Positions 15,143-38,244 of a stretch of 64,000 nt of DNA are shown piece after piece. Made by a program: the position numbers and the translations under genes. The stretch's first letter is position 1; each line of letters opens with the position of its first letter. Source of the stretch: Eledone cirrhosa. Its lineage: Eukaryota. The notes beneath the pieces were generated by a model. It did no database searches. It worked only from the letters and a program-made list of their open reading frames with translations, and was not told the DNA's origin. The stretch lies in NCBI GenBank assembly GCA_964016885.1, contig OZ024763.1, positions 16,492,001 through 16,556,000 on the forward strand. The letters are read 5' to 3'.

Positions 15143-15563
15143 AATAAAAGGAATTCCAACTTTGTCTGATTTACTCGTTTTATTTACAATCCTTTAAAAT
15201 TTATAATGGTATTAGAATGAAATAGTATGGTAGAATATTAAATATTAAGTGTTAATTGAACAAGTACTTTCATGCTTTCGCAATCTTCAGGTTCATAATG
15301 AGTGGTGACAGTCAAGTTTACAATTTTCAATTTTCACAGTTGAAAATTGCAAACTTGACTGTCACCACACATTATGAACCTGAAGGTTGCGAAAGCATGA
15401 AAGTACTTGTTCAATTAACACTTAACATTTAATATTCTACCATACTATATCATTCTAATACCATTATAAATTTTAAAGGATTGTAAATAAAACGAGTAAA
15501 TCAGACAAAGTTGGAATTCCTTTTATTAATATAATCTTCTATACACAATCATACACACCCATG
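15143..15563 (+). mobile_element. Fold-back element (inverted Penelope-type pLTR remnant): 188-bp arms plus 3' tail
   Basis: Arms 15143-15330 and 15340-15527, 9-nt loop, few mismatches. Unpaired tail 15528-15563. Follows (TA)n. Atypical core CTGAAGA-TTGC-GAAA. Confidence 0.7.
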
Positions 15564-15564
15564 T

Positions 15565-15637
<73 letters not shown>

Positions 15638-15639
15638 CA

Positions 15640-15872
15640 TAGAAGTGGTTACACAACAGTTAGTTCACCATACTGAGAACAATTGTTTCACCTTAGCGGA
15701 TCCTCAGCTCGTAATGGACATGGTTATACGGAACCGTTACGAGCTGAGGTTCCGCTAAGGTGAAACAATTGTTCTCGGTATGGTGAACTAACTGTTGTGT
15801 TACCACTTCTACCTAACTCGTCCCATGGATTGAGTGCTCTACCACTACAGATATTACCTTCCAGTATTCTAC

Positions 15873-15875
<3 letters not shown>
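15640..15875 (+). mobile_element. Fold-back element (inverted pLTR remnant): 78-bp arms plus 3' tail
   Basis: Arms 15640-15717 and 15734-15811, tail 15812-15875, (TA)n on both sides. Confidence 0.8.
15675..15710 (-). ncRNA. Minimal type I hammerhead ribozyme
   Basis: Minus strand reads GAG|CUGAGGA-UCC GCUAA GGU-GAAA-CAAUUG-UU|CUC: complete core, stem I GAG/CUC, palindromic stem III. The mirror copy at 15740-15777 has a core substitution (CTGAGGT). Confidence 0.75.
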
Positions 15876-15938
<63 letters not shown>

Positions 15939-15940
<2 letters not shown>

Positions 15941-17775
15941 TCATCATCACCGTTTTACGTCCGTTCTTCCACGCTAGCATGGGTTAGACGGGTTGTCCTG
16001 TTGTGGGCAGTGTCTGGTCGGCTGACCATGCCTTGCTCATACAGGAACTGATCTGGCTTGATTTCTACAGCTGGATGCCCTTCCTAACACCAACCTCATT
16101 TACAGTGAGTGCTGGGTGCTTTTTCGTGGCGCCTACACGTCCACTTTACAGTGTGGGCTGGGTGCTTTTTTGCTGTGGCACCTCCACGACCACCTTGCGG
16201 TGGGGGGGGGGGGGGGGGGGGCATATTGTTTATATGCTTCAGCATGTACCCATGGGAGGTCGGGTACCCTGTATTACTGCGTGACGCCAGAAGTCACGGT
16301 CGTGTGTCATTGACTTTGAGAGGTGTAGTTGGGTAAGGTCGGCTTTTATCACCTCATCCCAAGTCATCTTGGGTCTCCCCACTCCGCGGTTTCCATCAAC
16401 TTCTAGTGCTCTGCACCTTTTTATGCAGCTGTCATCCTTCATACGCATCACATGTCCATACCAGCGTAACCGCCTCTCCTGCACGCAGCATTTGATTCCT
16501 CTTATGCTCAGTCTCTCTCTCAATTCATTTATGCTTTGTCGTTCACGTATATTACTGTTACACATCCATCGGAGCATGCAGGCTTCGTTTCTCTCTAATC
16601 TACGTAAGTCTTCCACCTTCAGCGCCCAGGTCTCACTACCATGCAACATCGCTGTTCGGATACACGCATCATACAGTCTGCCTTTCATTCTGAGGGAGAA
16701 GCCTTTTGCAGCTAGCAGTGGTAGTAGTTCCCTAAACTTCTTCCATCCCGTTCTTACCCTAGTTATTGTACTTTCTGAGCACCCACCTCCGTTGCTAATT
16801 CGGTCACCTAGGTAGCAGAAGCTGTCTACTGTTTCTACAGGGCCCTCCCAGAGATTGGTGGTACTTGTTTCCTGTGGCTGTTTGCTTGCTGTTTCAGCAC
16901 AGCTGCTGCATGTGAATCCTACATTCTTAATTAAGCTTCCTGAGATCCCGCTACATCTCTTGTGTACCCATTGTTTGCATTTGGGGCAAAGAATGGAGTT
17001 CCTACCTACACCTTTCCTACATACTGAGCAAGGCCATTTCCCTGAGGGGATCTGGGTTCTGTTTTCTCGTCTACTTATAAGGACCTTAGTCTTTGTCATG
17101 TTGACTTTGAGGCCCTTTCTCTCTAGTCCCTGCTTCCAGGTTTGGAATTTATTCTCTAGTTCTACCATAGATTCAGCTATGAGTGCGAGGTCATCAGCAT
17201 ACAGGAGTTCCCATGGGCAACCGGTCTTAAACTCCTCCGTTATTGCCTGCAGGACTATGATGAACAGGAGAGGGCTAAGAACAGAGCCCTGGTGGACCCC
17301 AACCTGTACGCTAAATTCCTCGCTATACTCATTGCCAATCCTAACTTTGCTGACTGCTCCCCTATACATGGCTTGTACCGCTTTCACAAGCCATTCATCT
17401 ACTCCTAGTTTTCTAAGAGCCCACCAGATTACTGCACGTGGAACTCTGTCAAAGGCTTTCTCAAGGTCGACAAATGCCAAGTAGAGTGGCTTACTTTTAG
17501 CTAGGTACTTTTCCTGTAATTGCCTCACAAGGAAGAGCGCATCAGTGGTGCCTTTCCCTGGTACAAACCCAAATTGCATCTCGTCTATATTCACCCGGTC
17601 CCTAATCAGCTGTGCTATAACTCTTTCTGTTACTTTCATGACCTGGTCCATCAACTTTATACCTCTATAGTTTCCTCTATCTAGTGCATCGCCTTTACCT
17701 TTGTAGCAGTTGACAATGATGCTACTGCACCAATCTTTTGGTATGGCCCCCTCTAGTATTACCTGGTTAACGATA
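15939..17775 (-). mobile_element. 5'-truncated RTE-clade LINE flanked by (TA)n
   Basis: RT motifs NYRGIKL, QFGF, FVDLEKAFD, GVHQGSVLSPLLF, LLYADD, FCYLG, plus RRLRWYGHV and GRPK.TW. 3'UTR ends in (GAT)n at ~15939. Confidence 0.95.
16239..17775 (-). CDS. RTE ORF, partial: reverse transcriptase with embedded PHD-type finger and C-terminal region
   Basis: Uninterrupted frame of ~510 codons; the endonuclease is lost by 5' truncation. The track's N-terminal residues come from flanking (TA)n. Confidence 0.85.
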
Positions 17776-17777
17776 CG

Positions 17778-17808
<31 letters not shown>

Positions 17809-17929
17809 AAAATTAAAGATGTCATGTCTGAGAATATCAGCAACATGCACTATACGACCTATAGAAGAAGCTCAAAGATTCTAAGGAATAAAACCAAGCA
17901 TTTATTAAAAATTAAATTAAAGGATGTTT

Positions 17930-17963
<34 letters not shown>

Positions 17964-17966
<3 letters not shown>

Positions 17967-18431
17967 TCATCATCATCATCTTTGTTTAACGTCCATTTTC
18001 CACGCTAGCATGGGTTAGACGGGAGTTGTCCCACTTGAGGCAAGGTTGGTTGGGTGACCGTGTCTCGCTCATGTAGGACTGTCTGGCGGGTTTTCTACGA
18101 CTGGATGCCCTTCCTAACACCAACCACATTTACAGTGTGGACTGGGAACTTTTTACCGTGTTACCTACATGGCCACATTACAGCGTGGACTGTGTGTTTT
18201 TTTGTCGTGACACCTACATGAACTTGATCTCATTTTCTCGTGCTGTTGGTGGGAGTGGGAGGATAGGGTAGGAGTAGTAGATTGGGGGGTGTATATTTGG
18301 TTAAGAGGTGCCTACTGACTGTAGGTTTCGCTTTGTACATAGGCAAGGCGGGTCTTCTGTATTACTGCGTAGCGCCAAAGATCTCGGTCCAGAGACATTG
18401 TCTTAGAGAGATGTAAGTGTGTGAGGTCGGA
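17964..18431 (-). mobile_element. RTE 3' fragment (ORF end, 3'UTR and GAT tail)
   Basis: Homologous to 15939-16345 and 22276-22613. (TA)n on both sides. Confidence 0.85.
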
Positions 18432-18459
<28 letters not shown>

Positions 18460-18463
<4 letters not shown>

Positions 18464-18747
18464 ATACTTGGGGAGGGTCATATTTGTGTAATAATATTGC
18501 CAGAATTAATAACAGAACACACTCACTGTTTGGTTGGTTTTCGCTTCTGTGACTTTTATATCGGTTAATTTAATTTATTCGGTCCTCAATGTTTACCATT
18601 GACTGACCAACGGTCAAAAATACAGATATAATATAGACACAAACACATATATATAGTCTAACAAAGTTCTTTCGTTGCACATCTGCAACATCGTCAGTGG
18701 TGCTATTATGTTTCCTCCTGTTGTATTGTATGCCTACGCCATCTTTC
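18460..18747 (-). mobile_element. pLTR-like fragment between (TA)n tracts, hammerhead core at 18664-18697
   Basis: Minus strand CUGACGA-U-GUUGCA GAUG UGCAAC-GAAA-GAAC-UU. 18486-18517 recurs inverted at ~62087-62115. Confidence 0.6.
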
Positions 18748-18829
18748 TATATATATATATATATAAAATACACTCTTTACAAATTATCCCCTCTCAATGT
18801 TTATATGTTTATTTCATATATATATATAT

Positions 18830-18955
18830 AGATAAAAAATAACAGGAGGCTGGACTGGTGTAATTCCTTAAAGGTTTATTATACTATGATCATTTCAGTG
18901 ACCGGGTTCCATATGAATCCGGTGACATCATCATACTGAACCCGGTCATTGAGGG
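18830..18955 (-). mobile_element. pLTR-like fragment with degenerate hammerhead (18885-18934) and short fold-back
   Basis: Minus strand AUGAUGA-U-GUCACCGG...CCGGUCAC-U-GAAA-UGAUCA-UA, with a palindromic stem III and C3 mutated. 18896-18909 is inverted at 18938-18951. Confidence 0.5.
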
Positions 18956-19697
18956 AGCTAAGTACAAACCATGATATTTGAAATTGGTTGAAAATATTTT
19001 TTGATTATTTTAAATTAAAACTGTAATGAGAAAAGAAATATAATTATTATTAATAAATGTGTTAATTTGCATTTAGTAATATGTTTTTTATGCAGAAGGC
19101 ACCCATGAGAAATCTCTGAAATTTATTATTTTAATTAACCTAATAATTAGATATCATGCATATTAAAATAATAATACTTTTATTTACTCTTTTAAACTAT
19201 CTGTGGATTATACTTTGCTGAAGAGGTCCAATGAGTTGAAAACATGTCCAGAGTTATCTTCGTCATGGTCTAGATTTCTCTTTGCTGCGAAGATTTAGGT
19301 CAGGTGTCTTGTTTAAGGATAATTTCCCATCCTTCTATCTACAAGACTCTAAGACCCATAGAAAATAATACCATGGGCACTGATCTTTCCTCTCATCCCA
19401 TCACACTCCCCCAACACTCCAGTAGGATCATAAGCTCAGTCCTTCCCTCTATAACCAAGCTGTAAAAAAAGAAAACAACAACAAAAATATATCTTCAGTG
19501 AAATTTTCGAGGGTTCTGTTTCCTCATTGGAGAACTAATTAAATACTAATTATGTTTTTTGTTTTTAATATTTTTTTCTCTCATTAGGGTTGTATTTAAA
19601 ATTAATTAATTAAGAATTATTTTCAACTCCTAAACTATGTTCCTTCACAGTCTATGTGGTTAACATGACCCCCCCCCCCCTCCCCTCCAAAAAAAAA

Positions 19698-19922
19698 ATA
19701 CACACAGACACACAGATACACATATGCACAAACATACACACACACACGCACTCAGACAGACACACACAAACACACAGACACAAACACACAGACACACACA
19801 CAGACACACACATACACCCCCCCCCACACACATGCACACAAACACACATGCACATACACACACACGCAAACACAGACACACACACAGACACACACACAGA
19901 CAGACACACACACACACACACA
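19698..19922. repeat. (CA)n microsatellite
   Basis: Read directly from sequence. Confidence 0.95.
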
Positions 19923-20309
19923 AATCCGAAGATGTAAAAATAGGATTTTAACCTAGAATGCTTTAGTCATAACTGGTTACACAGCACCTTAACTCTTTTG
20001 ATCCCAGCCCTGATTTCACAATACAGGACTTTATTTTAAAACTGTTTATATATATATTTCTTTAAAAACCTTCCATCATAATTTTTTCTAGGAACCTTTG
20101 TTAAGTTATGTTCCAAATTCCATAAATACAGAACCAGTTATAGACCTTTGTGGGGGTCTCCAGACCACCAATTCAAGTTTGGTTGGTGCCTCATATAACA
20201 ACACACACACACACACACACACATATAACCACATATACACTCACATAGATATATCATTATCATCATCATCATTTAACATCCATCCTTTAAACGATGATGA
20301 TGATGATGC

Positions 20310-20976
20310 TGATGGTAATTATAGCCACCGAGCTCAACAAGTTTGGAGCTGTTAAATACAAATAACGAATCAAAACATACCAAATATGTTTAGAATTTTG
20401 TGTTTCTCAATAAGCAAGCTCAATAAACATTATCTAGAGCTATAATAACCAAATAAAGAGATATATGTATATGTATATATAGAGAGAGAGGAAGAGCCAA
20501 ATATTGTACAAGAAACAAGATATATTGTATATATACCAAATACATATTCTATAGAAGAATATGTACACAGGTGGAATTGTAAGTGAAACCTTATAGCGCT
20601 ATTTCATACCTGGAGAGTGTAGCTCAAAATCAATCTATGTAATTGATCATCGAAAGGAAAAAAAAAAAATCAATCAATATATTCGACAAACTTTCGATTA
20701 TGATTAAACCACATGAGACTCAGGTACTCATCAGAGGTTTAGTCTCACCATTCTAAGGGAAATATAGAATGAAGATGGTAAATAAATCAATATACCTGGG
20801 AATATCCACAGCTAAGTCCAACTCATATGAATCATGGCTCTTTTTCTCTATCTCTATATATATACATATATCTCTTTATTTGGTTATTATAGCTCTAGAT
20901 AAAGTCTATTGAGCTTACTTATTGAGAAACACAAAATTCTAAACATATTTGATATGTTTTGATTCATTATTTGTAT
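20310..20976 (-). mobile_element. Inverted-repeat element: ~143-bp arms, ~335-bp spacer with two hammerhead-like cores, left-side tail
   Basis: Arms 20356-20499 and 20835-20976. Minus-strand CTGATGA...CGAAAG at 20683-20734 and TCGATGA...GAAA-TAGCGCTA-TA at 20592-20653. Confidence 0.65.
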
Positions 20977-20979
20977 ATA

Positions 20980-21374
20980 CGAGGGTAATCCCAAAAGTAA
21001 GGTCTCCAAAGCGATGGGGATGCAGAGGAACTGTTCGTATGGCTGTTGGCAACACTGTTGTGATTGGTGCTTCCTTCACTCCCAAACAAGCAAGCCCGTG
21101 CTTCACTGGGATGCTCAATCTTGGCTTGGCAGCCGTTGAGAATGGAGCTCCCGTTGAACTCTACCGCCAAGTGCGAATTTCGCGCAGTTATTATATTATG
21201 AGGGCAATCCCAAAAGTAAGGTCTCCTTCCGAGGAAAACATGCGTAAAGATCGGCAGATCACTGTGGATGCTCTCTGCATTTTGGTTCCTGAGGTTTCCC
21301 GAAGCACCATCCACAGGGTTTTAACGGAAAAGTTGCAATATCGGAAGGAGACCTTACTTTTGGGATTGCCCTCG
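20980..21374 (+). mobile_element. Internally deleted mariner transposon(s): two left TIRs, one right TIR
   Basis: TA+cgagggtaatcccaaaagtaaggtctcc at 20978, a second copy at 21197, inverted copy 21347-21374. Transposase remnants MELPLNSTAKCEFRAVI (ATG 21142) and DRQITVDAL...SRSTIHRVLTEKLQYRK (HTH). Confidence 0.85.
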
Positions 21375-21376
21375 TC

Positions 21377-21677
21377 ATTTATCATTTCATTTCATTTTAC
21401 ATCCGCTTTTTTCCTGCTTGCAAGGGTGGGACGGGAACTGATTCTGGCTTGATTTCTACAGCTGGATGCCCTTCCTAACACCAACCTCATTTACAGTGAG
21501 TGGTGGGTGCTTTTTTTTTTGCCGTGGGACCTCCACGACCACTTTGCAGTGGAATGATAGGGACCCCAGTCCCTATCATCTCATTTCTACAGCTGAGTAA
21601 ACTGGAGCAATGTGAAAAAAAGTGTCTTGCTCAAGGAATCAACACATCACCCGGTCTGAGAATTGAACTCACAACCT
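21377..21677 (-). mobile_element. tRNA-SINE with RTE-type tail, 5'-truncated (family of 37097)
   Basis: Reverse complement of ~37142-37440. Confidence 0.9.
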
Positions 21678-22275
21678 ATATATATATATAAAGAATTTGT
21701 ATATCTAGTAACATATATATACACAGATGCATACTTATGCTAGCAAATATATAGGTTTTGTCTTAGTAACTTTGTGGTTCAATGAATTTTCTTATTTTAC
21801 GTCTCTCATATATATATATATTTATATATATATATATAAACTCCCAAAATAGAATAAATTTTTAAAAAATTACTAAATAAATATGATTAGTTGAATAAAA
21901 TAAATTGATGGTAACATGTGTAAAGATTGCCAATTTGACAACTCTGCCATCAGCTAAATGGAGTTATAGAACTGATGGCTCTCTGTTCAAATTGGAGCTG
22001 AATTAATTATCGCTGAAGGCACAACATACCGATTTATATGTTTATATGTGTATGCGTGGGTGTTATATGTATGTATGTATATATATATATATGTATGTAT
22101 GAATGTGTGTGTGTATATATATATTTATGTGTGTGTGTGTGTGTGTGAGTGTGTATATATATATATCTATGTATGTGTGTGTGTGTGTATATATATATCT
22201 GTGTGTGTGTGTATATATACATATATATGTGTGTGTATATATATATATTATATATATATATATTTGTTTACTCGA

Positions 22276-22610
22276 GAGAAGACTACGTTGGTATGGTCAC
22301 GTGATGCGCATGAAAGACGACAGCTGTATAAAAAAGTGCAGGGCAATAAAAATAGACGGTAGCCACGGAGTAGGCAGACCCAGAAATACTTGGGATGACT
22401 TGATAAATTCCGACCTCACACACTTACACCTCTCCAAGATAATGTCACTGGACCGAGATCTTTGGCGCTACACAGTAATAGAGAAGACCCGCCTTACCTA
22501 AGTGCAAAGTGAAACCTACTACAGTCAGTAGGCACCTCTAACAAAATACACTGTCCAAACCCATGCAAGCATGGAATATGGACGTTAAACGATGATGATG
22601 ATGATGATGA

Positions 22611-22613
<3 letters not shown>
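22276..22613 (+). mobile_element. RTE 3' fragment with shortened 3'UTR and (GAT)n tail
   Basis: ERRLRWYGHVMRMKDDSCIKKC..GRPRNTW, followed by 'ggacgttaaac(gat)n'. Confidence 0.9.
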
Positions 22614-22654
<41 letters not shown>

Positions 22655-22687
22655 GATATTAACAAATGGAAACTATATTTATAAAAT

Positions 22688-24451
22688 ATGAATACAGATG
22701 CCTCTTATATAATGCATGAACTAGGCATTGAAAATAGGACACAACCCTTCATGCCAAGGAAACCTAAGATTAATATGAAGGATCATAAAAGGAACTTTGA
22801 AACTGATTTACCAGTCAGATTAATTGCACCATCAAAATCGGACCTTGGCAGACTTAGCAAAAATATTCTGGACAGAATAATACCACAAATTAAGAATTTA
22901 TCTAATTTATCTTATTTAAAATTATGGAAAGGAACTAGTGAAGTTATCGATTGGTTTAAAGAAATTAAATATAACGATAATAATAAGTTTATTCAGTTGG
23001 ATATTGCTAACTATTACTCATCTATCACTCCTAATCTACTGAATAAGGCACTAACTTACGCATTTAAACATACAGACATAACTAGCAATGAAATGCACAT
23101 TATATTATCGGCACGGAAAACATTAATAGAATTTAATAACCAACTCTGGACTAGGGCAGATAGAAATAATAATTTCGACATAACTATGGGATCTTCCGAT
23201 TCCGCTCAGGTAACGGATCTTGTGGGCCTATTTATAATTAATTCTCTACATAGAAAAATACCTGAGATAACCGGAGGTTTATATCGTGACAACATGCTTT
23301 TACTTATAGAAAATAATAACTGTGAACTAAATAGAAAAAGAAAACAAATTATACAATTTTTTAATTATCTTAATCTAAAAGTAGAAATAGAGAATAACCA
23401 TAAAATAGTCAATTTTCTAGATGTAACACTAAATCTTAACACATGTCTTCATTATCCATTTCACAAACTAAATGAGAACTTAAATTATGTCAATTTTAAC
23501 TCTAATCACCCCAGATCCGTTAAAAATACTATAGTGAACTCTGTACAAGAACGAATTTCGAGAATTTCAGTTAATAAGAATATATTTGATGAAAAAGCAC
23601 ATTATTACAACGAAGCGTTAGGTAGAGCTGGGTATAGAAATAAAATTAAATACATCGATAATAATAATAATATAACAACTAACCATAATCGTAACAATTT
23701 TAACTATGGTAACAATTTTAACAACTATAATAGGAAACCTTACATTAATTCCGAAAGCCGAAAAAGAAATAGAACTAGGAACATATTATGGTTCGCTCTT
23801 CCTTTCTCATTAAATATTAAAACCCCTATTGCTAAACTATTTTTTAAAGCTCTTGACAAATGCTTCCCTAGAGCACATAGATATTACTCAATTTTTAATA
23901 GACATACTATAAAATTAACTTATTCTTCCACCAAAAATTTAGCGCAAAATATTAATAGAATTAATAATAGAAATTTAAAACCTAACCAAAATACCAATAA
24001 TAACCCAAGCAATATTCAATCTGATAAATGTAACTGTAGAAATAAATCTAACTGTCCGTTAAATAACAATTGCTTAGCTAAAAATGTAGTATATAATTGT
24101 AATGTAAAAACTAATTTAAATTCATTTAATTATGTGGGATCTACTTCCACAGAGTTTAAATCCCGCTTCAATAATCATAAAAATTCTTTTACAGATCCAA
24201 ACAAAAAATCTTCAACTTCTCTATCTAGCCTATTATGGGACCTAAAACTAGAGAACGTTGAATATTCATTGATTTGGAATATTATTTCAAAAGCTACTTC
24301 TTTTAACTCCTCTTCAGAAAATTGCGATCTTTGTATAGAGGAAATATTCTTTATATTAAAGACCAAAAATTCCCTGAACTTAAGGAATAATTTATTCAGT
24401 TGCTGCAGACATAGAATAAACTCAACGTTTAAATATAAATTTAAAATGTAG
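22688..24451 (+). CDS. Penelope-like RT + GIY-YIG endonuclease (partial; clade possibly Naiad/Neptune type)
   Basis: PVRLI, FIQLDIANYY, DITMGS, GLYRDN (YRDD altered), VNFLDVTL, CNCR..CPL..CL..VVY...YVGST..FKSR.NNH..SF, CDLC.EE..LN.R..CCRH. Confidence 0.9.
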   Translation: MNTDASYIMHELGIENRTQPFMPRKPKINMKDHKRNFETDLPVRLIAPSKSDLGRLSKNILDRIIPQIKNLSNLSYLKLWKGTSEVIDWFKEIKYNDNNKFIQLDIANYYSSITPNLLNKALTYAFKHTDITSNEMHIILSARKTLIEFNNQLWTRADRNNNFDITMGSSDSAQVTDLVGLFIINSLHRKIPEITGGLYRDNMLLLIENNNCELNRKRKQIIQFFNYLNLKVEIENNHKIVNFLDVTLNLNTCLHYPFHKLNENLNYVNFNSNHPRSVKNTIVNSVQERISRISVNKNIFDEKAHYYNEALGRAGYRNKIKYIDNNNNITTNHNRNNFNYGNNFNNYNRKPYINSESRKRNRTRNILWFALPFSLNIKTPIAKLFFKALDKCFPRAHRYYSIFNRHTIKLTYSSTKNLAQNINRINNRNLKPNQNTNNNPSNIQSDKCNCRNKSNCPLNNNCLAKNVVYNCNVKTNLNSFNYVGSTSTEFKSRFNNHKNSFTDPNKKSSTSLSSLLWDLKLENVEYSLIWNIISKATSFNSSSENCDLCIEEIFFILKTKNSLNLRNNLFSCCRHRINSTFKYKFKM

Positions 24452-25818: not shown

Positions 25819-25858
<40 letters not shown>

Positions 25859-26039
25859 CTCTCTCTCCTTCTTTTTCTTTCTCTGCAACCCAACGGCTTA
25901 TTTTAAAAATAAAAATATCCAATATTAATAATAATATAAGTAAACAACTCCACTATCCGGGAGCTTCCAACAGTAATGGTTGCATTTTTTAAGGGTATGT
26001 CAATATTTATTTATAAAACTGATCTATATTATATTTTGT

Positions 26040-26086
26040 CTGATGAAAGCACACCATAATTTAACTTGGTGTCCTTGAAATATGTA
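26040..26086 (+). ncRNA. Hammerhead ribozyme motif in Penelope pLTR
   Basis: CUGAUGA-AAG(C)ACACCA[10 nt]UGGUGU(C)CUU-GAAA-UAUG-UA. Stem I is weak as read. Confidence 0.7.
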
Positions 26087-26241
26087 TAATGAAATAAATA
26101 TGGTTTTATAAATATAGTTTCCATTTGTTAATATCGTATGTTTACTCCAAATACTTGTTGAGTGCTTTATATCAGTTATAAAAATATTTGCTTGTTGTAT
26201 CCCAACAATTTAAATAGAACTCTTACATATATATATATATA

Positions 26242-26646
26242 AACGTTAGAATATGTGTAATAAGGCCAAGACAATGCAGATATGGACATAGAAAAAAGAA
26301 TGCAATAGTGAGAGATATTGATGTGAATTCGTCTTTCACCTTGAATTTATTTAAATGTCCTTAATTTTCGAGATAATATCTCTTCTTCGGAGGGAAGTAA
26401 AGGTCTCAGACCAGCGTCTTTAAATTTGCTGGTCTGAGACCTTTACTTCCCTCCGAAGAAGAGATATTATCTCGAAAATTAAGGACATTTAAATAAATTC
26501 AAGGTGAAAGACGAATTCACATCAATATCTCTCACTATTGCATTCTTTTTTCTATGTCCATATCTGCATTGTCTTGGCCTTATTACACATATTCTAACGT
26601 TGATACCTCATTACACAATGCTTCAAGTGAACTATAACCTCCTCCC
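26242..26646 (+). mobile_element. Perfect fold-back element (inverted pLTR): 174-bp arms plus tail
   Basis: Arms 26242-26415 and 26428-26601, 12-nt loop, no mismatch seen. Tail 26602-26646. Variant core CCU|CCGAAGA-A-GAGAUA U UAUCUC-GAAA-AU-UA|AGG at 26450-26484. (TA)n flanks. Confidence 0.85.
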
Positions 26647-27736: not shown

Positions 27737-27782
27737 TCAAAAGTTTGACTCTTTTAGACTAATGTACTTTGGTAGCATTTAC

Positions 27783-27843: not shown

Positions 27844-28024
27844 CTAGTGCTCGTAACACAATAAACTGAAGCAAAACAAGTAATTGAGGTTTTCTTTGGC
27901 TGACTTTAAATAAATAAAACAGAAAATAAATAAATTTATAAATAAAATAAAATAAAATAAAATAAAACAACAAAAATTAATAAATAAATAAATATAAAAA
28001 TAATATTGAAATATTACTGAAAAT

Positions 28025-28033
28025 AGCTACAAC

Positions 28034-28067
<34 letters not shown>

Positions 28068-30212
28068 ACACCAACAATAGTAATAATGTCATCAACAGCA
28101 GCAACAATAACAACAATCTCGGCAACAACAACCATCAACAACGACAGTAACAGCTACAGTAACAAAAACAACAACAAGTCACAAGTGACAACAGTAACAA
28201 CAACAGCAACAACAGTAACAACAGCAACAACAGTCACAACAACAACAGTCACAGTCATAATAGTGACAACAGTGACAACAACAACAGTGACAACAACAAC
28301 AGTCACAACAACAGTAACAACAACAGCAACAACAACAACAGTCATAAGAGTGACAACAGTGACAACAACAGTGACAACAACAACAGTGACAACAACAGTA
28401 ACAACAACCACAACAGTAACAACAACCACAACAGTAACAACAACAACAACAGTCATAAGAGTGACAACAGTGACAACAACAGTAACAACAGTCACAACAA
28501 CAACAACAACAGTAACAACAACAACAGTCACAACAACAACAGTAACAACAACAGTAACAACAACAGTAATAACAACAGTAACAGTCACAACAGCAACACT
28601 AACAACAGCAGTGACAACAGTAACAACAACAGTCACAACAGTAACAACAACAGTCACAACAACAACAGTAACAACAACAACAGTCACAACAACAACAGTA
28701 ACAACAACAGTCACAACAGCAACACTAACAACAGCAGTGACAACAGTAACAACAACAGTCACAACAACAGTCACAACAACAACAGTCACAACAACAACAG
28801 TCACAACAACAACAGTAACAACAACAACAGTAACAACAACAACAGTCACAACAACAACAACAGTAACAACAACAGTAACAACAACCACAACATGAACAAC
28901 AACAACAGTAACAACAACCACAACAGTAACAACAGTCACAACAACAACAGTAACAACAACAGTAACAACAACCACAACAGTAACAACAGTAACAACAACA
29001 GTCACAACAACAACAGTAACAACAACAGTCACAACAACAACAACAACAACAGTCATAAGAGTGACAACAGTGACAACAACAACAGTAACAACAGTCACAA
29101 CAACAACAACAACAGTCACAACAACAACAACAACAACACCAACAACAGTCACAACAACAACAGCAGTCACAACAACAACAACAACAACAGTCACAACAAC
29201 AACAACAACAACACCAACAACAGTCACAACAACAACAACAACAACAGTCACAACAACAACAACAACAACACCAACAACAGTCACAACAACAACAGCAGTC
29301 ACAACAACAACAACAACAGTCATAAGAGTGACAACAACAACAGTAACAACAGTAACAACAGTCACAACAACAACAACAACAACAGTCACAACAACAACAA
29401 CAACACCAACAACAGTCACAACAACAACAGCAGTCACAACAACAACAACAACAACAGTCATAAGAGTGACAACAACAGTAACAACAGTAACAACAGTCAC
29501 AACAACAACAACAACAACAGTCACAACAACAACAACAACAACAACAACAGTCACAACAACAACAACAGTCACAACAACAACAACAACAAAAGTAACAACA
29601 ACAGTCACAACAACAGTCACAACAACAACAGTCACAACAACAACAGTCACAACAACAACAGTAACAACAACAACAGTAACAACAACAACAGTCACAACAA
29701 CAACAACAGTAACAACAACAGTAACAACAACCACAACATGAACAACAACAACAGTAACAACAACCACAACAGTAACAACAGTCACAACAACAACAGTAAC
29801 AACAACAGTAACAACAACCACAACAGTAACAACAGTAACAACAACAGTCACAACAACAACAGTAACAACAACAGTCACAACAACAACAACAACAACAGTC
29901 ATAAGAGTGACAACAGTGACAACAACAACAGTAACAACAGTCACAACAACAACAACAACAACAGTCACAACAACAACAACAACAACACCAACAACAGTCA
30001 CAACAACAACAGCAGTCACAACAACAACAACAACAACAGTCATAAGAGTGACAACAACAACAGTAACAACAGTAACAACAGTCACAACAACAACAACAAC
30101 AACAGTCACAACAACAACAACAACAACAACAACAGTCACAACAACAACAACAGTCACAACAACAACGACAACAAAAGTAACAACAACAGTCACAACAACA
30201 GTCACAACAACA
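28025..30212. repeat. (CAA)n-derived compound repeat with a higher-order internal duplication
   Basis: caa repeats interrupted by agt/agtc. The unique marker 'accacaacatgaac' occurs with its ATG at 28892 and 29738 (846-bp period). Confidence 0.95.
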
Positions 30213-30323
30213 ATGTCAAGAGATTAGGCTCATTTCTTTGATAGACTTCATTTAATAGATTTTTTTTGTTATTCAGAAGGAAATAATTGAGGTCTTGTAG
30301 ACAGCTTCTCAGATATCAACCTT

Positions 30324-30443
30324 TATATATATATATATATATAGACATATATATATATATAGACATATATATATATATAGACATATATATATATATAGAC
30401 ATATATATATATATAGACATATATATATATATATATATATATA

Positions 30444-30519
<76 letters not shown>

Positions 30520-30615
30520 TATATATATATATAGACATATATATATATATAGACATATATATATATATAGACATATATATATATATAGACATATATATAT
30601 ATATATATATATATA

Positions 30616-30689
<74 letters not shown>

Positions 30690-30813
30690 TATATATATAT
30701 ATAGACATATATATATATATAGACATATATATATATATAGACATATATATATATATAGACATATATATATATATATATATATATAGACATATATATATAT
30801 ATATATATATATA

Positions 30814-30851
<38 letters not shown>

Positions 30852-31004
30852 TATATATATATATAGACATATATATATATATAGACATATATATATATAT
30901 AGACATATATATATATATAGACATATATATATATATAGACATATATATATATATTATATTTATATATATGTATATATATATATATTATATATATATATTA
31001 TATA

Positions 31005-31058
<54 letters not shown>

Positions 31059-31524
31059 ATATATATATAATATATATATATACATATATATAAATATAAT
31101 ATATATATATATGTCTATATATATATATATGTCTATATATATATATTATATATATATATATATATTATATATATATATTATATATATATATTATATATGT
31201 ATATATATTATATATGTATATAAATATATTATATATGTTTATGTATATATATGTATATATTATATATATATATGTTTATATATGTATATTATATATATTA
31301 TATATATATATATTATATATGTATATATATATTATATATATATATATGTTTATATATATATATTATATATATATATATGTTTATATATATATATTATATA
31401 TATTATATATATATTATATATATATATATGTTTATATATATATAGATGTATATATATTATATATATATATGTTTATATCTATCTATCTATCTATTTATCT
31501 ATATATACATACATGTAAATATGT

Positions 31525-31579
<55 letters not shown>

Positions 31580-31580
31580 C
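30324..31580. repeat. (TA)n tract with periodic GAC interruptions (~18-bp unit)
   Basis: Read directly from sequence. Confidence 0.95.
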
Positions 31581-31689
31581 ATGTAAATATGTACATACGT
31601 GTGTATATAATTAAATCAATAGAAAAACATATTTGTTCTAACATATACAACTAAGAAAACTTAATATTACCATCTGCAATAGTAATAAC

Positions 31690-34350
31690 ATTAGTAGTAG
31701 TAGTAGTAGTAGTAGTAATGGTGGTATTAGTAGTAGTAATGGTGGTATTAGTAGTAGTAGTAGTAGTAATGGTGGTATTTGTAGTAGTAATGGTGGTATT
31801 AGTAGTAGTAGTAGTAGTAATGGTGGTATTTGTAGTAGTAATGGTGGTATTAGTAGTAGTAGTAGTAGTAATGGTGGTATTAGTAGTAGTAATGGTGGTA
31901 TTAGTAGTAGTAGTAGTAGTAATGGTGGTATTAGTAGTAGTAATGGTGGTATTAGTAGTAGTAGTAGTAGTAATGGTGGTATTTGTAGTAGTAATGGTGG
32001 TATTAGTAGTAGTAATGGTGGTATTAGTAGTAGTAATGGTGGTATTAGTAGTAGTAGTAGTAGTAATGGTGGTATTTGTAGTAGTAGTAGTGGTATTAGT
32101 AGTAGTAGTAGTAGTAATGGTGGTATTTGTAGTAGTAGTAGTGGTATTAGTAGTAGTAGTAGTAGTAATGGTGGTATTAGTAGTAGTAATGGTGGTATTA
32201 GTAGTAGTAGTAGTAGTAATGGTGGTATTTGTAGTAGTAATGGTGGTATTAGTAGTAGTAATGGTGGTATTAGTAGTAGTAGTAGTAGTAATGGTGGTAT
32301 TTGTAGTAGTAGTAGTGGTATTAGTAGTAGTAGTAGTAGTAATGGTGGTATTTGTAGTAGTAGTAGTGGTATTAGTAGTAGTAGTAGTAGTAATGGTGGT
32401 ATTAGTAGTAGTAATGGTGGTATTAGTAGTAGTAGTAGTAGTAATGGTGGTATTTGTAGTAGTAATGGTGGTATTAGTAGTAGTAATGGTGGTATTAGTA
32501 GTAGTAGTAGTAGTAATGGTGGTATTTGTAGTAGTAGTAGTAGTAATGGTGGTATTAGTAGTAGTAGTAGTAGTAATGGTGGTATTTGTAGTAGTAATGG
32601 TGGTATTAGTAGTAGTAATGGTGGTATTAGTAGTAGTAGTAGTAGTAATGGTGGTATTTGTAGTAGTAATGGTGGTATTAGTAGTAGTAGTAGTAGTAAT
32701 GGTGGTATTTGTAGTAGTAATGGTGGTATTAGTAGTAGTAGTAGTAGTAATGGTGGTATTTGTAGTAGTAATGGTGGTATTAGTAGTAGTAGTAGTAGTA
32801 ATGGTGGTATTTGTAGTAGTAATGGTGGTATTAGTAGTAGTAGTAGTAGTAATGGTGGTATTAGTAGTAGTAGTAGTAGTAATGGTGGTATTAGTAGTAG
32901 TAATGGTGGTATTAGTAGTAGTAGTAGTAGTAATGGTGGTATTTGTAGTAGTAATGGTGGTATTAGTAGTAGTAGTAGTAGTAATGGTGGTATTAGTAGT
33001 AGTAGTAGTAGTAATGGTGGTATTAGTAGTAGTAATGGTGGTATTAGTAGTAGTAGTAGTAGTAATGGTGGTATTAGTAGTAGTAGTAGTAGTAATGGTG
33101 GTATTAGTAGTAGTAGTAGTAGTAATGGTGGTATTAGTAGTAGTAATGGTGGTATTAGTAGTAGTAGTAGTAGTAATGGTGGTATTAGTAGTAGTAATGG
33201 TGGTATTAGTAGTAGTAGTAGTAGTAATGGTGGTATTTGTAGTAGTAATGGTGGTATTAGTAGTAGTAATGGTGGTATTAGTAGTAGTAATGGTGGTATT
33301 AGTAGTAGTAGTAGTAGTAATGGTGGTATTAGTAGTAGTAATGGTGGTATTAGTAGTAGTAGTAGTAGTAATGGTGGTATTTGTAGTAGTAATGGTGGTA
33401 TTAGTAGTAGTAATGGTGGTATTAGTAGTAGTAATGGTGGTATTAGTAGTAGTAGTAGTAGTAATGGTGGTATTTGTAGTAGTAGTAGTGGTATTAGTAG
33501 TAGTAGTAGTAGTAATGGTGGTATTAGTAGTAGTAATGGTGGTATTAGTAGTAGTAGTAGTAGTAATGGTGGTATTTGTAGTAGTAGTAGTGGTATTAGT
33601 AGTAGTAGTAGTAGTAATGGTGGTATTTGTAGTAGTAGTAGTGGTATTAGTAGTAGTAGTAGTAGTAATGGTGGTATTTGTAGTAGTAGTAGTGGTATTA
33701 GGAGTAGTAGTAGTGGTGGTAATAGTATTAGTAGGAGTAGTAGTAGTGGTGGTAATAGTAGTAGTAGTAGTAGTGGTAGTATTAGTAGTAGTAGTGGTGG
33801 TGGTAGTATTAGTAGTAGTAGTAGTGGTGGTAATAGTATTAGTAGTAGTAGTATTAGTAGTAGTGGTGGTGGTAGTAGTATTAGTAGTAGTGGTGGTAGT
33901 AGTATTAGTAGTAGTGGTGGTGGTGGCAGTATTAGTAGTAGTGGTGGTAGTAGTATTAGTAGTAGTGGTGGTGGTGGCAGTATTAGTAGTAGTGGTAGTG
34001 GTGGTGGTAGTAGTATTAGAAGTAGTGGTAGTGGTGGTAGTAGTATTAGAAGTAGTGGTGGTAGTAGCAGTACTTAGTGGTAGTGGTTGTCGTGACAGTG
34101 GTGATGGTAGTAGTAATAATAGTAGTAGTGGTAGTAGTTAGAGTGGTGTCAGCAGTGGTGGTGATATTAGTAGTAGTTGTGGTGGTGGTAGTAGTAGTGA
34201 TGGTGATAGTGATATTAGTAGTGGTGGTGGTGGTGGTGGTGGTGGTAGTAGTAGTAGTAGTAGTGATGGTGATAGTGATATTAGTAGTAGTGGTGGTGGT
34301 GGTGGTGGTAGTATTAGTGGTAGTATTAGTAGTAGTAGTAGTAGTGGTAA
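31690..34350. repeat. (AGT)n-derived minisatellite, 21/30-bp units (aatggtggtatt + (agt)n)
   Basis: Read directly from sequence. The poly-Val ORF is an artefact. Confidence 0.95.
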
Positions 34351-34675
34351 TGGTAAATGTGTTTTGTTGTGTCTCCAATCTAACCAATCAGTTTGTAGTG
34401 CCAGTGGTAATAGGGGACATCACTGTTGTAATACGGAGTTATTTTCCCTTGTTTATAGTAACATTTATTGAATTACCATTATATACACACACACACATAT
34501 ATTTATATATACATATATACATACATACATACATATACGAATACAAATATATACGTACATATATTGAGTCGTCAAGTATGGAATTTGTAGAAAATTGAAG
34601 GGAAAAAAAAATTTCTATAAATTTCTTACTTGACAACCCAATATATATATATATATACATGTGTGTGTATATATA

Positions 34676-34719
<44 letters not shown>

Positions 34720-34759
34720 CTTATATATAAAATATATATGTGTGTGAATATAAATATGT

Positions 34760-34965
34760 GGAGGCACGTGGCCTAGTGGTAAGGGTGTTGGACTTACAAT
34801 CATAATGTCGTGGGTTTGATTCCTGGGCTGCGTGTTGTGTTCTTGAGCAAAACACTTCATTTCACTTTGCTGCAGTAGACTCAGCTGAAAAAGAATGACA
34901 GTAATAGCTAGGGATTTAACCCTGCGATGGCTTAACCCTTCTGGCTTAAGACAGACTTTAGACTT
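34760..34965 (+). mobile_element. tRNA-SINE with V-like domain, internally deleted
   Basis: A box tggcctagtgg, B box ggtttgattcc, 'gtgttcttgagcaaaacactt', 'aaccctgcgatgg'. Confidence 0.8.
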
Positions 34966-35414
34966 TATATATATATATATATGAAAAATATGGGGAGAAG
35001 AATACTGCATGGTTGCACATGGATTACATATTATAAAATTAGTCCCTCATCAGTGATTTGCCAACGATCATTGGTATTTCATCACATTAAAAATCATATA
35101 CCTCAGGTTGGTGCGAGCAATAACTAAAATAAGCTATTGGGACAAGTGAAACGCGTAAAGCGAGTGAGACAAGTAAACAACATAGAAGGAAGAGTTAACC
35201 GAAGATGAGAAGAAAAAAACAATCAACATGGTTATTCGATCAGCGTAAGCTGGGTGAATTCATGAGCGCTTAGCGAACAGACCTTTCGCTGTGAATGGGA
35301 TGTGAGAAAGAAAGAATCTGACTCCTAGCGAACGGGAGGAAGTGAGAAGGAGAGAAACAGAGAGTGAGTGAGTGGAAGTGCGAGGAAGAGGTCATATATA
35401 TATATATATGATAA

Positions 35415-35570
35415 TCATCATCATTTAACGTCCATCTTCCACACTAGCATGGGTTAGATGGTTTTGTTCCATTTGATGCGGGAATGGTTGGGAGACCTTG
35501 TCTCACTTGTACAGAAGTGTCTCTGACAGGTTTTTTACAGCTGGATGCCCTTCCTAACACAAACCACATT
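35415..35570 (-). mobile_element. RTE-type 3' tail fragment
   Basis: (cat)n-ttaacgtccatcttccacactagcatgggttaga ... ctggatgcccttcctaacac. Confidence 0.75.
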
Positions 35571-36339
35571 TATATATATATATATATGTATGTATGTTCT
35601 TCTGGTTTTATAAATTCACAAAGTTTTACCACTAGAGAGAGAGAGTCGGTTTCTAACATAGACACAAGACTCTCTCATTGGAATTTACACAACATCAACT
35701 AGGTAGATATGTATGTATGTATGCATGCATGTGTAGATATGGATGTTATTGTATGTGTGGATGTGGATGTTTTGAGTTGTATGTGTGCATATGTATATGC
35801 TTTGTATCTGTACATGTGTATATGCAGTTATTAGATGCAAAATTTGTTTATGTATGTATGTATGTATGTATGTATGTATAATTATGAAATGAAGCTTATC
35901 AAATAGAATGGATTCAGCTTCGATCATTTTCTCACTCAATAATTTAATTAGAGTGTCCACTTATATATTAACCAGTGAGGAAAATGACATCATGTGGGTA
36001 GGAATTCGGAGTTTCCCTGACTAGTGCACCAGTTTCTATGTTTCTGATCTGCTGGCTGTGGTCTGAATGGAACCACCATGTGCAGAATTTAGGTAATTTT
36101 AATGTACATTATGTAAGCTGGCAGGAATCACGTCCTCAGCAGGAAATTGCTTCTCCAGAATGGAAAGGCCCGTTTGGTCAGCTAGCACAACACGCTAATG
36201 GACACAAGGGAGTATAGTAGTATTCCTTAACTTTCAGTGATAGGTGACGTCACATCAAAGAGGAGGTAAGCCAGGCCTGACCATTTACAGGGAACAAACA
36301 TTTATATGTGCTTACATATTTATGTGCATACCCACACAG

Positions 36340-36372
<33 letters not shown>

Positions 36373-36573
36373 CATATACACTTGCATATATATACATACA
36401 TCCATACACATATGTGCGTTTTAGTTAGCTAAAGCATCACTTTTATAGAGATAGAAGGATAAACAATGCAAAATGAACTGTAAGATGAAGGTAACGAAAA
36501 TGTAAGTTACCTGGTAATCTTTGATTTTATATATATATATATATATACACAGACATATATATGTATATGTCTG

Positions 36574-36628
<55 letters not shown>

Positions 36629-37095
36629 TTAAATGTATAGGAAAAACAAACGACTAGGCGTGAAGTATAGATTAGAAGTGAAGAATTTTAATCAAAGTTC
36701 ATTCTTTAACACATGTTTCAATACAATATCAGTCTACAAGTAGTGGTTGCATATTAATATCATTATTATGCAAAGACTATGTTGAGAAAATTACTTTGGT
36801 AAGCAATCTAATTTTTGTTTGTACACTGATCTACAAAAACAAATTTAGCCATACATATCTTCATATATATATATATATAAATATATATATATATACATAT
36901 ATATAGAAAAGATGAATATAAAATTAAAGTGCTTTCATAAAGGAATTTATTAGGTATTGACATATGTTTCTGTAACAGACGGAATACTTATATATAATTT
37001 ATACTCGTTGAGCAAACCTACACGTACGCTGTTCACCTCTAACGTGACGATATATTATCACTACATTATTGATAACTTGAAATATACTATATAAT

Positions 37096-37440
37096 GGAGG
37101 CATATGGCTTAGTGGTTAGAGCATTGGTCTTGCAATCGAAAGGTTGTGAGTTCAATTCTCAGACTGGGTGATGTGTTGTTTCCTTGAGCAAGACACTTTA
37201 TTTCACATTGCTCCAGTTTACTCAGCTGTAGAAATGAGATGATAGTGACTGGGGTCCCTATCATTCCACTGCAAAGTGGTCGTGGAGGTGCCACGGCAAA
37301 AAAAGCACCCAGCACTCACTGTAAATGAGGTTGGTGTTAGGAAGGGCATCCAGCTGTAGAAATTAAGCCAGTATCATTTCCCGTCCCACCCTTGCAAGCA
37401 GGGAAAACGCGGACGTAAAATGAAATGAAATGAATGAAAT
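37096..37440 (+). mobile_element. Full-length tRNA-derived SINE with RTE-derived 3' tail
   Basis: A box tggcttagtgg, B box gagttcaattc, CORE-like 'tccttgagcaagacactttatttcac', 'ggaagggcatccagctgtagaaa', (tgaaa)n tail. Confidence 0.9.
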
Positions 37441-37597
37441 ACATATATATATATATATCATATATATATATATATATATATATGAAGATATGTATGGATA
37501 TATATATATTTATTAAAATAACAGATTAAAGTTTAAGCAAAGAATCACTGCTTTCACCCTTAACGGGATCTTCTAAAACTATTATTTGTATAAAAGT

Positions 37598-37639
<42 letters not shown>

Positions 37640-37645
37640 CATATG

Positions 37646-38244
37646 AAGTGTTTCCGTAGGGAAAGTAAAGGAAAAGAGAGTGCTCTATGTAGGCTACAGA
37701 GCTTTTTAGTTATTTAATAAACAACATAAGATAGGAGGAGGTTATAGTTCACTTGAAGCATTGTGTAATGAGGTATAAACGTTTGTATATGTATAATAAA
37801 GTCAAAACAATACAGGTATGGACATAGAATAAAGAATGCAAATGCAAAAGATATTGTTGACAATTAGTCTTTTACCATAGATTTAATTAAATGTCCTAAA
37901 TTTTCGAGATAATATCTCTTCTTCGGAGGGAAGTAAAGCGGTTAAACCATACCTGCATTGTTTTGGCTTTATTAAACATAAGATAATTATTTAATTTACC
38001 AAAGGTTTCACAAAGACAAACAAGCCTGACACAGATGTCTAACATCGCTCGTCAGAATGAAATTTTATTTAAAATGGTATGAGATATGGATTTCAAAACA
38101 AAGTCTAGATTTTGTTTTGAAACATCCATTTCAAATAAATTTTGATTCTGACGACCGATGTCAGACGTCTGTGTTAGGCTTGCCTGTCTTCGTGAAACCT
38201 TTGGTAAATGGAATAATTATCTTATGTTGTTTATTACATAACTA
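37646..38244 (-). mobile_element. Fold-back pLTR element with hammerhead core, left arm interrupted by a second pLTR
   Basis: 37708-37733 plus 37975-~38075 is the inverse of ~38125-38244. Core CUGACGA...GAAA-CCUUUGG-UA is present in both arms. Tail 37646-37707. Confidence 0.75.
37734..37974 (-). mobile_element. Second copy of the 26242 pLTR family, with tail and short inverted piece; 11-bp TSD
   Basis: Diverged homolog of 26441-26646. 37947-37980 is the inverse of ~37788-37821. 'aacataagata' is duplicated at 37723-37733 and 37975-37985. Confidence 0.8.

What the first reader, a model, noticed from the sequence alone, without database searches (positions are those of the whole stretch)
15143..38244. 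Multiple unrelated fold-back mini-elements with hammerhead cores and one-sided tails, next to (TA)n
Seen: five long inverted repeats with unrelated sequences (15143-15527, 15640-15811, 20356-20976, 26242-26601, 37708-38244). All share one architecture: two inverted arms, an unpaired ~35-65-nt tail on one side only, adjacent TA-repeat DNA, and a CUGANGA...GAAA-type core. The core is complete at 15675 and ~38148, variant or degenerate in the others. Established: Penelope-like pLTRs carry minimal hammerheads thought to cleave as dimers, and they often integrate as inverted partial repeats with a 3' extension. Inference: this is a diverse population of ORF-less, microsatellite-targeted PLE derivatives. 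They are either extreme truncation products or non-autonomous ribozyme retroelements, and they would give long dsRNA hairpins if transcribed.
Basis: partly seen in the sequence, partly recalled or inferred. Interest (0 to 1): 0.75.

Follow-up and report, generated by a model that had tools for sequence, protein, structure and literature searches.

The report
Penelope retroelement end-stumps with hammerheads
The five hairpins are real and carry hammerhead self-cutting RNA motifs, but four are mirror-doubled end pieces of protein-coding Penelope-like jumping genes and the fifth is a protein-free 600-base unit that likely rides on such genes, a layout already known in animals.

Summary
The five inverted repeats are real. 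Four (E1, E2, E4, E5) are the ribozyme-bearing ends (pLTRs) of Penelope-like elements (PLEs), joined head to head in TA repeats. Each family was traced in this genome to a PLE reading frame: one Neptune-type, two Hydra-clade, one Nematis-like. E3 is a ~608-nt ORF-less, circularly permuted unit, likely a non-autonomous PLE passenger. Corrections: E4 and E5 are not unrelated, since an E4-family copy sits inside E5's arm. Each element has at least one full type I hammerhead, not just two of them (E4 with a family-wide CCGA variant; E3 with a 122-nt helix II). Inverted copy, one-sided tail, TA targeting and opposite-strand hammerhead pairs are all published, and this scan met the same layout in other windows and genomes. 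Extras measured here: the tail lies on exactly one arm in 15 of 15 E5 fold-backs, both arms mostly share one haplotype, and 21 of 30 E1 copies begin within 15 nt, 31 nt behind a TATA box. That suggests run-off copies of the mRNA's 5' end rather than random truncation (untested; no RNA data). New members of a known kind.

The parts
15137..15330 (-). E1 inverted arm: tail-less copy of a Neptune-type PLE pLTR
15336..15533 (+). E1 direct arm: pLTR starting 44 nt upstream of hammerhead C3, the family's 5' hot spot; core here CUGAAGG
   Evidence: 96.6% to ORF-bearing copy L311
15534..15570 (+). E1 tail, 37 nt
   Evidence: absent from the inverted arm in 15 of 15 pLTR fold-backs of a tail-selected set
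15257..15295 (-). E1 complete type I hammerhead (C3 15290; palindromic helix III AGUACU; predicted cut after 15262)
15640..15734 (-). E2 inverted arm: tail-less pLTR of a Hydra-clade PLE
15738..15811 (+). E2 direct arm; core here CUGAGGU
   Evidence: 95.7% to long copy L314
15812..15876 (+). E2 tail, about 65 nt, followed by (TA)31
15675..15710 (-). E2 complete type I hammerhead (C3 15707; palindromic helix III ACAAUUGU)
20310..20824 (-). E3 body: most of a ~608-nt ORF-less unit plus 43 nt of the next unit
20586..20740 (-). E3 complete type I hammerhead in the spacer: 6-bp helix I, 122-nt helix II domain closed by 7 bp, palindrome AUAGCGCUAU
20834..20979 (+). E3 short inverted copy of the unit's 3' end, tail included
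26238..26427 (-). E4 inverted arm: tail-less pLTR of a Nematis-like PLE; CCGAAGA hammerhead at 26390
26428..26605 (+). E4 direct arm; CCGAAGA hammerhead at 26453
   Evidence: 98.6% to full-length copy L182
26606..26648 (+). E4 tail, 43 nt; in the full-length copy it holds the first ATG of the 905-aa frame
37644..37706 (-). E5 tail, about 63 nt, beside (TA)22
37707..38100 (-). E5 tailed arm (pLTR of a second Hydra-clade PLE), split by a nested insertion; hammerhead C3 at 38055
37731..37980 (-). Nested E4-family copy: tail plus 208-nt pLTR and a 34-nt inverted stub; 6-10 nt (ACATAAGATA) repeated at its sides
38104..38244 (+). E5 tail-less arm; complete hammerhead, C3 at 38148, 39-nt helix II

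Best explanation
E1, E2, E4 and E5 are head-to-head pairs of the hammerhead-bearing ends of four protein-coding Penelope-like elements, and E3 is a ~608-nt ORF-less unit with the same two-ended layout, all likely written into TA repeats by PLE endonuclease-reverse transcriptases. Shown: family links to PLE reading frames, two fixed 3' ends per family, tail on one arm only, TA flanks, variable junctions, shared haplotype between arms. Inferred mechanism: the enzyme cuts both strands in a TA run; one nick primes at the downstream start site (tailed arm), the other at a site 37-92 nt upstream (tail-less arm), as measured in vitro for Poseidon_Ac (PMC11167929); both copy one RNA or RNAs of one source locus; the two cDNA ends are joined head to head, often at a short palindrome. 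For E1, and less clearly E4, the stump length is probably set by the RNA's 5' end: priming at the pLTR-ORF junction near the mRNA start runs off at the transcription start (about 55%). The fold-backs are then dead products: E1 lacks its TATA box, and the long hairpin would bury the ribozyme core. E3 probably arose when a pLTR was joined to its own downstream leader, and is copied in trans by an unidentified PLE.
For: E4: L182 has two direct pLTRs (429 bp, 99.3%) around a 905-aa frame with RVT_1 (E 5.6e-16) and GIY-YIG (E 5e-05). E1: frames of 411-679 aa with RT motifs (RVT_1 E 2.7e-05, below the curated cut-off), CX4CxxC linker and C-terminal GIY-YIG run into the E1 pLTR. E2: 585-aa frame with CxCX5C, CxxC, CxH; RWR and DKT in overlapping copies, the marks given for Hydra (PMC8557442 section 11). 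E5: pLTR lies 1.8-5.6 kb downstream, same strand, of a second Hydra-type ORF end in 5 of 12 extended loci, and abuts its inverted copy in 3 loci. Copies with an adjacent inverted pLTR at the tail-less boundary: E1 15 of 30, E2 14 of 30, E4 15 of 30; no inverted piece in 13, 12 and 11 of 30. With a tail-free query, 15 of 15 E5 fold-backs whose outer ends both sit at family boundaries have exactly one tail (binomial 6e-5). TA run within 30 nt of the 3' end: 26, 30, 29 of 30. Arms differ at diagnostic sites 2/265 (E4), 6/113 (E5), 5/38 (E1), 6/55 (E2) against 0.33, 0.35, 0.40, 0.28 for random pairs. E1 5' ends: 21 of 30 at -46..-32, 3 downstream, 6 upstream; TATATAA begins 31 nt before -44; no stable structure there, z -1.2; 5 of 6 E1 arms met by chance in other loci also start at -44..-39 (window copy dropped). 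E3: 29 of 30 loci run from the post-tail segment back into the unit's own 5' part, none into an ORF. Core bases paired with probability near 1 in four fold-backs.
Against: No RNA evidence for a start site or for cleavage. E2's 5' ends crowd against the limit set by the query (22 of 30 at -22..+23), so they show no separate peak; E4's peak is broad (14 of 30 at -58..-37, 10 further upstream) and has only TTTAAAG at the TATA position. All sets are the 30 best matches to the window copy, so young, similar copies are favoured. Two E1 fold-backs (L077, L079, of 18) carry different haplotypes in their arms, which one template cannot give; conversely, gene conversion between arms could mimic a single template. 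E5's link crosses simple repeats and other insertions, and 7 of 12 loci showed no E5 hammerhead arm. E3's helper was not found. Pfam gave no hit for the Hydra-type frame; clade labels rest on motifs, no tree was built. Core positions are no better conserved than the rest in E1, E2 and E4, as expected for unselected copies but no proof of activity.
Confidence: 0.85

Rival explanations
1. The stumps are ordinary random 5' truncations from the 3' pLTR, or the reverse transcriptase stalls just past the hammerhead; no role for the transcription start.
For: PLE insertions are heavily 5'-truncated (PMC8557442 passage). E2 and E3 5' ends are spread. Copies that extend hundreds of bases past the hot spot exist in E1, E2 and E4.
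Against: E1: 21 of 30 ends in 15 nt, 10 at one position, in copies with and without an inverted arm, 31 nt behind TATATAA, with no strong hairpin there.
Confidence: 0.35
2. The second arm is made by fold-back self-priming of the first cDNA (or of an antisense template), not by a second priming at the target.
For: Arms share haplotypes. Several centres sit on existing palindromes: E2 helix III (L045, L049), E4 helix II (L112). Self-priming was proposed from such palindromes in PMC3846280 (passage).
Against: It does not by itself explain why copying stops at the fixed tail-less boundary, which is also the 3' end of many single-arm copies (6 of 9 E5 solos). E1 centres are perfect palindromes with A or T in the middle. 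Two E1 copies have mixed arms. End-joining of two cDNAs also favours palindromes.
Confidence: 0.3
3. The fold-backs are non-autonomous ribozyme retroelements that move as whole hairpin units or act through circular RNA.
For: Lengths cluster within E1 and E4; hammerheads are intact in most arms (64/78, 98/116, 44/50, 56/74, 26/34). E3 is non-autonomous. An earlier unchecked note (e1-8673030) reports edited hairpin RNA copied back into DNA in this genome.
Against: Junctions differ between copies, the same E1 junction occurs on several haplotypes that also occur in ORF-bearing copies, about 40% of copies have no second arm, the hairpin buries the core, and no arm of the 62-135 per family showed A-to-G excess (BLAST selection would miss heavily edited copies).
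Confidence: 0.07
4. They are MITEs or foldback DNA transposons.
For: Long inverted arms in TA context.
Against: Asymmetric ends, single-arm copies, and continuity with RT/GIY-YIG frames.
Confidence: 0.01

Closest known systems
Insertions of endonuclease-bearing PLEs with inverted 5'-truncated copy and 30-40-bp tail (PMC8557442, passages, section 11, supplement parts 2 and 54 of 59; PMC3846280, passages)
   Same: Head-to-head inverted copy, tail on one end, tail overlapping the ORF start (E4), palindromes at junctions, (TA)n targeting; a Hydra element is listed for Octopus bimaculoides.
   Different: Here both copies are pLTR-sized; tails of 63-65 nt (Hydra families) and ~92 nt (E3) exceed the quoted 30-40 bp; a sharp 5' hot spot behind a TATA box was not seen in the passages read.
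Minimal type I hammerheads in metazoan pLTRs (PMC4209133, passages)
   Same: Extra base before helix II, short palindromic helix III; the paper already notes dual motifs 100-700 bp apart on opposite strands, ascribed to truncated PLEs.
   Different: E4 has CCGA for CUGA in 42 of 50 arms; E3 has a 122-nt and E5 a 39-nt helix II domain.
Poseidon_Ac internal initiation (PMC11167929, parts 1-2 of 4)
   Same: Two start sites whose interval is the tail; both target strands cut and extended; AT-rich targets.
   Different: Other clades here; start sites inferred from genomic ends only.
Animal non-LTR retrozymes (PMC7229834, passages; bioRxiv 10.64898/2026.07.22.740005, part 1 of 5) and non-autonomous Chlamys PLEs such as MRC1 (PMC8557442, passage)
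   Same: E3 is ORF-less, head-to-tail, AT-rich, one type I hammerhead per unit.
   Different: E3's unit (~608 nt) is longer than the 150-450 bp quoted; no locus of 30 held two hammerheads in tandem; circular RNA not tested.

Membership tests
EN+ Penelope-like elements (parents of E1, E2, E4, E5) | Single ORF with RT and GIY-YIG endonuclease joined to the pLTR | tested here: met
   E4 by Pfam; E1 by motifs and weak RVT_1; E2 by motifs only; E5 by an ORF end upstream in 5 of 12 loci
EN+ Penelope-like elements | pLTR formed by partial tandem | tested here: met
   E4: L182, 429-bp direct repeats; E2: short upstream piece in L314. Not seen for E1 or E5 in the copies fetched
EN+ Penelope-like elements | Inverted 5'-truncated copy and one-sided tail | tested here: met
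EN+ Penelope-like elements | Type I hammerhead in the pLTR | tested here: met
   (motif and helices; activity untested)
Hydra clade (E2, E5 parents) | RWK-like and DKT motifs, CxCX5C linker, CxxC and CxH, C-terminal EN, (TA)n targets | tested here: met
   E2: all seen. E5: linker, CxxC and a CP end in a frameshifted C-terminal piece only
Neptune clade (E1 parent) | CX2-5CxxC linker before a C-terminal EN | tested here: met
   CNDSRCGTC against supplement alignment; no tree
Nematis clade (E4 parent) | Reduced Cys linker and RT phylogeny | tested here: inconclusive
   Linker and RPLH motif resemble Nematis rows by eye; no tree
Non-LTR retrozyme (E3) | ORF-less head-to-tail unit with a type I hammerhead | tested here: met
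Non-LTR retrozyme (E3) | At least two consecutive hammerhead-bearing units | tested here: not met
   0 of 30 junction loci (1.5-kb flanks); longest about 1.4 units
Non-LTR retrozyme (E3) | Self-cleavage and circular RNA | not testable with these tools
   No RNA holder listed for the one search made, which used an E1 stretch
Non-LTR retrozyme (E1, E2, E4, E5) | ORF-less tandem unit | tested here: not met
   They continue into ORFs
MITE / foldback DNA transposon | Symmetric terminal inverted repeats with fixed ends | tested here: not met

The most novel reading that the evidence does not exclude
Solo and fold-back pLTRs are run-off (strong-stop-like) cDNAs: internal priming at the pLTR-ORF junction near the 5' end of an ordinary PLE mRNA copies back to the transcription start, so genomic stumps map the promoter (E1: 31 nt behind TATATAA), and each fold-back records an obligate use of both start sites, one per target strand, on one RNA. 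Joining such a run-off end to downstream leader sequence would create ORF-less units like E3.
Probability: 0.4. Interest if true: 0.5.

Novelty: new member of a known kind. Interest (0 to 1): 0.27.

Why it matters
As a class it is ordinary: it explains a large share of hairpin DNA in this genome as PLE debris and warns against calling such hairpins ribozyme switches or MITEs. The use lies in mechanism. How PLEs make inverted copies and tails is still open (PMC8557442, PMC11167929), and hundreds of young copies from several clades give counts that models must meet: one tail per fold-back, one haplotype per fold-back, a sharp 5' limit. E3's long-helix hammerhead and E4's CCGA core are ready substrates for cleavage tests.

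Tried and rejected
Rfam scan: no hammerhead family among the 150 of 158 rows shown; hits were simple-repeat artefacts. Two templates from different loci as the rule: rejected, arms mostly share haplotypes; 2 of 18 E1 pairs fit it. A-to-G hyperediting: none in the arms examined, window copies included; the sample disfavours edited copies. 5' ends set by hammerhead cleavage: no pile-up at the predicted cut in E1 or E4; in E3 two copies (L386, L389) cross the cut site by 14-18 nt. RT stalling at a hairpin upstream of the hot spots: z -1.2 to +0.7. Autonomous partner of E3: none in 90 loci from three searches (overlapping sets). Pfam found nothing for the Hydra-type frames. RNA data: no RNA holder listed; contigs of 2 of the 4 listed runs, kind unknown, only showed the tail-less ends at 15533 and 15811 followed by TA and say nothing on expression. 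Literature searches gave no paper combining PLEs with strong-stop or run-off products; only open-access text was searched, older Penelope promoter papers were not seen, and supplements other than three look-ups in PMC8557442 were not read. E3 folded whole did not favour the hammerhead fold (helix probabilities 0.05 or less).
Full report
Setting. The window lies at C24:16492001-16556000 of a 3.0-Gb genome. It is rich in simple and tandem repeats. The mix of Hydra-type PLEs and TA microsatellites fits an octopod; this is inference, helped by the Octopus entries in the supplement of PMC8557442 and by earlier scan notes. Positions such as -44 are counted from C3 of the hammerhead core.

Observation. 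The five inverted repeats are real and stand out from all other non-simple short-range inversions. Three corrections. First, E5 holds an E4-family copy (37731-37980, 87.5% identical to E4) inside its left arm. Second, a type I hammerhead descriptor finds 10 cores in the window against 0.055 in 200 shuffles, 8 of them in the five elements, so every element has at least one full motif. E4's has CCGA, fixed in its family (42 of 50 arms). E3's was missed because helix II encloses 122 nt. Third, E3's one-sided stretch is not the family tail but 43 nt of the next unit.

Families. Each element is a dispersed repeat: first-look candidates were 225-2560 per query, with 40 scored and 30 fetched each time. 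E4 extends into a full-length PLE, L182: two 429-bp direct pLTRs around a 905-aa frame with RVT_1 and GIY-YIG, whose first ATG lies in the tail; the linker looks Nematis-like by eye. E1 extends into frames with RT motifs, a CX4CxxC linker and a C-terminal endonuclease, Neptune-type. E2 extends into a Hydra-clade frame with RWR, DKT, CxCX5C, CxxC and CxH. E5 is preceded by a TG-rich UTR; the end of a second Hydra-type ORF abuts it in inverted form in three loci, and the E5 hammerhead arm lies 1.8-5.6 kb downstream of that ORF's UTR on the same strand in 5 of 12 extended loci (the 12 were chosen from 30 mostly for a continuing UTR). Window arms are 96.6%, 95.7%, 98.6% and 81.6% identical to these long copies. 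E3 has no ORF: the segment after its tail runs back into its own 5' part in 29 of 30 loci (three of them one triplicated place), giving a unit of about 608 nt; no locus held two hammerheads in tandem.

Fixed or variable loop. With queries from the 3' end only, an inverted copy ending at the tail-less boundary was adjacent in 15 of 30 E1, 14 of 30 E2 and 15 of 30 E4 loci; 13, 12 and 11 had none; the rest had other inverted pieces (window copies included). Junctions vary, so the fold-back is made per insertion. Outer ends are fixed: two 3' ends per family, 37, 65, 43, 63 and about 92 nt apart. With a tail-free E5 query, 15 of 15 fold-backs with both outer ends at family boundaries had exactly one tail; five further rows (window copy, two shortened arms, two ambiguous) were left out and one duplicate merged. 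TA runs follow the 3' end in 85 of 90 E1, E2 and E4 loci.

One template or two. At diagnostic sites the arms of one fold-back agree far more than random arms: 2/265 against 0.33 (E4), 6/113 against 0.35 (E5), 5/38 against 0.40 (E1), 6/55 against 0.28 (E2). This points to one RNA or one source locus, or to later conversion between arms. Two of 18 E1 pairs carry different haplotypes at two linked sites.

5' limit. In E1, 21 of 30 copies begin at -46..-32, ten at -44, in fold-backs and single-arm copies alike; only 3 begin downstream and 6 upstream. TATATAA starts 31 nt before -44 and the region is unstructured. Five of six E1 arms met by chance in other loci agree. E4 shows a broader peak (14 of 30 at -58..-37); E2 and E3 show none that can be told from query bias or spread. 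The simplest reading is run-off at the transcription start after internal priming near the mRNA's 5' end. This is inference; no RNA run was listed.

Function of the hairpins. Folded as RNA, E1, E2, E4 and E5 form long duplexes in which the core bases are paired with probability near 1. Each strand carries one sense hammerhead facing its own antisense copy, so neither monomer nor cis-dimer folding is likely. They are best seen as dead products that may feed dsRNA pathways if read through. No A-to-G excess was seen in 62-135 arms per family.

Known systems. Inverted 5'-truncated copies, one-sided tails and (TA)n targeting are described in PMC8557442 (passages, section 11, two supplement parts) and PMC3846280 (passages). 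Opposite-strand pairs of minimal hammerheads 100-700 bp apart are noted in PMC4209133 (passages). The tail as the interval between two start sites, and extension of both target strands, are shown in PMC11167929 (parts 1-2 of 4). E3 works like an animal retrozyme or a non-autonomous PLE (PMC7229834 passages; bioRxiv 10.64898/2026.07.22.740005 part 1 of 5) but fails the two-unit criterion in my sample, so I file it as a non-autonomous PLE passenger. Earlier notes of this scan describe the same layout in this and other genomes; none matched E3's sequence or the start-site hot spot.

Verdict. New members of a known kind; interest 0.27. The run-off reading (probability 0.4) would deserve about 0.5.

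Noticed in passing
window 25946-26226: A sixth repeat family with a complete type I hammerhead (C3 26040, +, 8-bp helix I) directly left of E4; 66 BLAST rows among window and fetched loci. Likely another PLE end.
   Followed up: partly
window 63282-63313 (-) and 18580-18750 (-): A further descriptor hit at 63310 and a repeated stretch with a CUGACGA...GAAA core at 18697; both recur in fetched loci.
   Followed up: no
window 24180-24380 (-): Stretch resembling the C-terminal coding end of another Hydra-type PLE; 75% match in L053.
   Followed up: no
window 20980-21368: Short element with ~28-bp terminal inverted repeats inserted at a TA at E3's right end; mariner-like (label recalled).
   Followed up: no
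window 37088-37165 and 38330-38408: tRNA-like repeat copies in opposite orientation around E5 (Rfam tRNA 30.8 and 23.9 bits); likely SINE heads.
   Followed up: no
L087 (G000:C4:163356913-163360064): An E1 pLTR starting at the 5' hot spot is joined directly to ~200 nt from the ORF's N-terminal region: a possible template jump of the kind that could create E3-like units.
   Followed up: partly
L181 335-4419: E4-family fold-back with 1.8-kb arms, 99.9% identical: a very young insertion with the same layout.
   Followed up: partly
L350 4790-5930: A ~1.1-kb fold-back of yet another hammerhead family inserted in the TA-rich UTR of the E5 parent; PLE stumps nest in each other's TA-rich parts.
   Followed up: no
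window 1837-6367, 11989-13882, 39633-40549, 50391-51534, 58797-60100: Large tandem arrays with 36, 49, 72, 142 and ~243-nt units.
   Followed up: no
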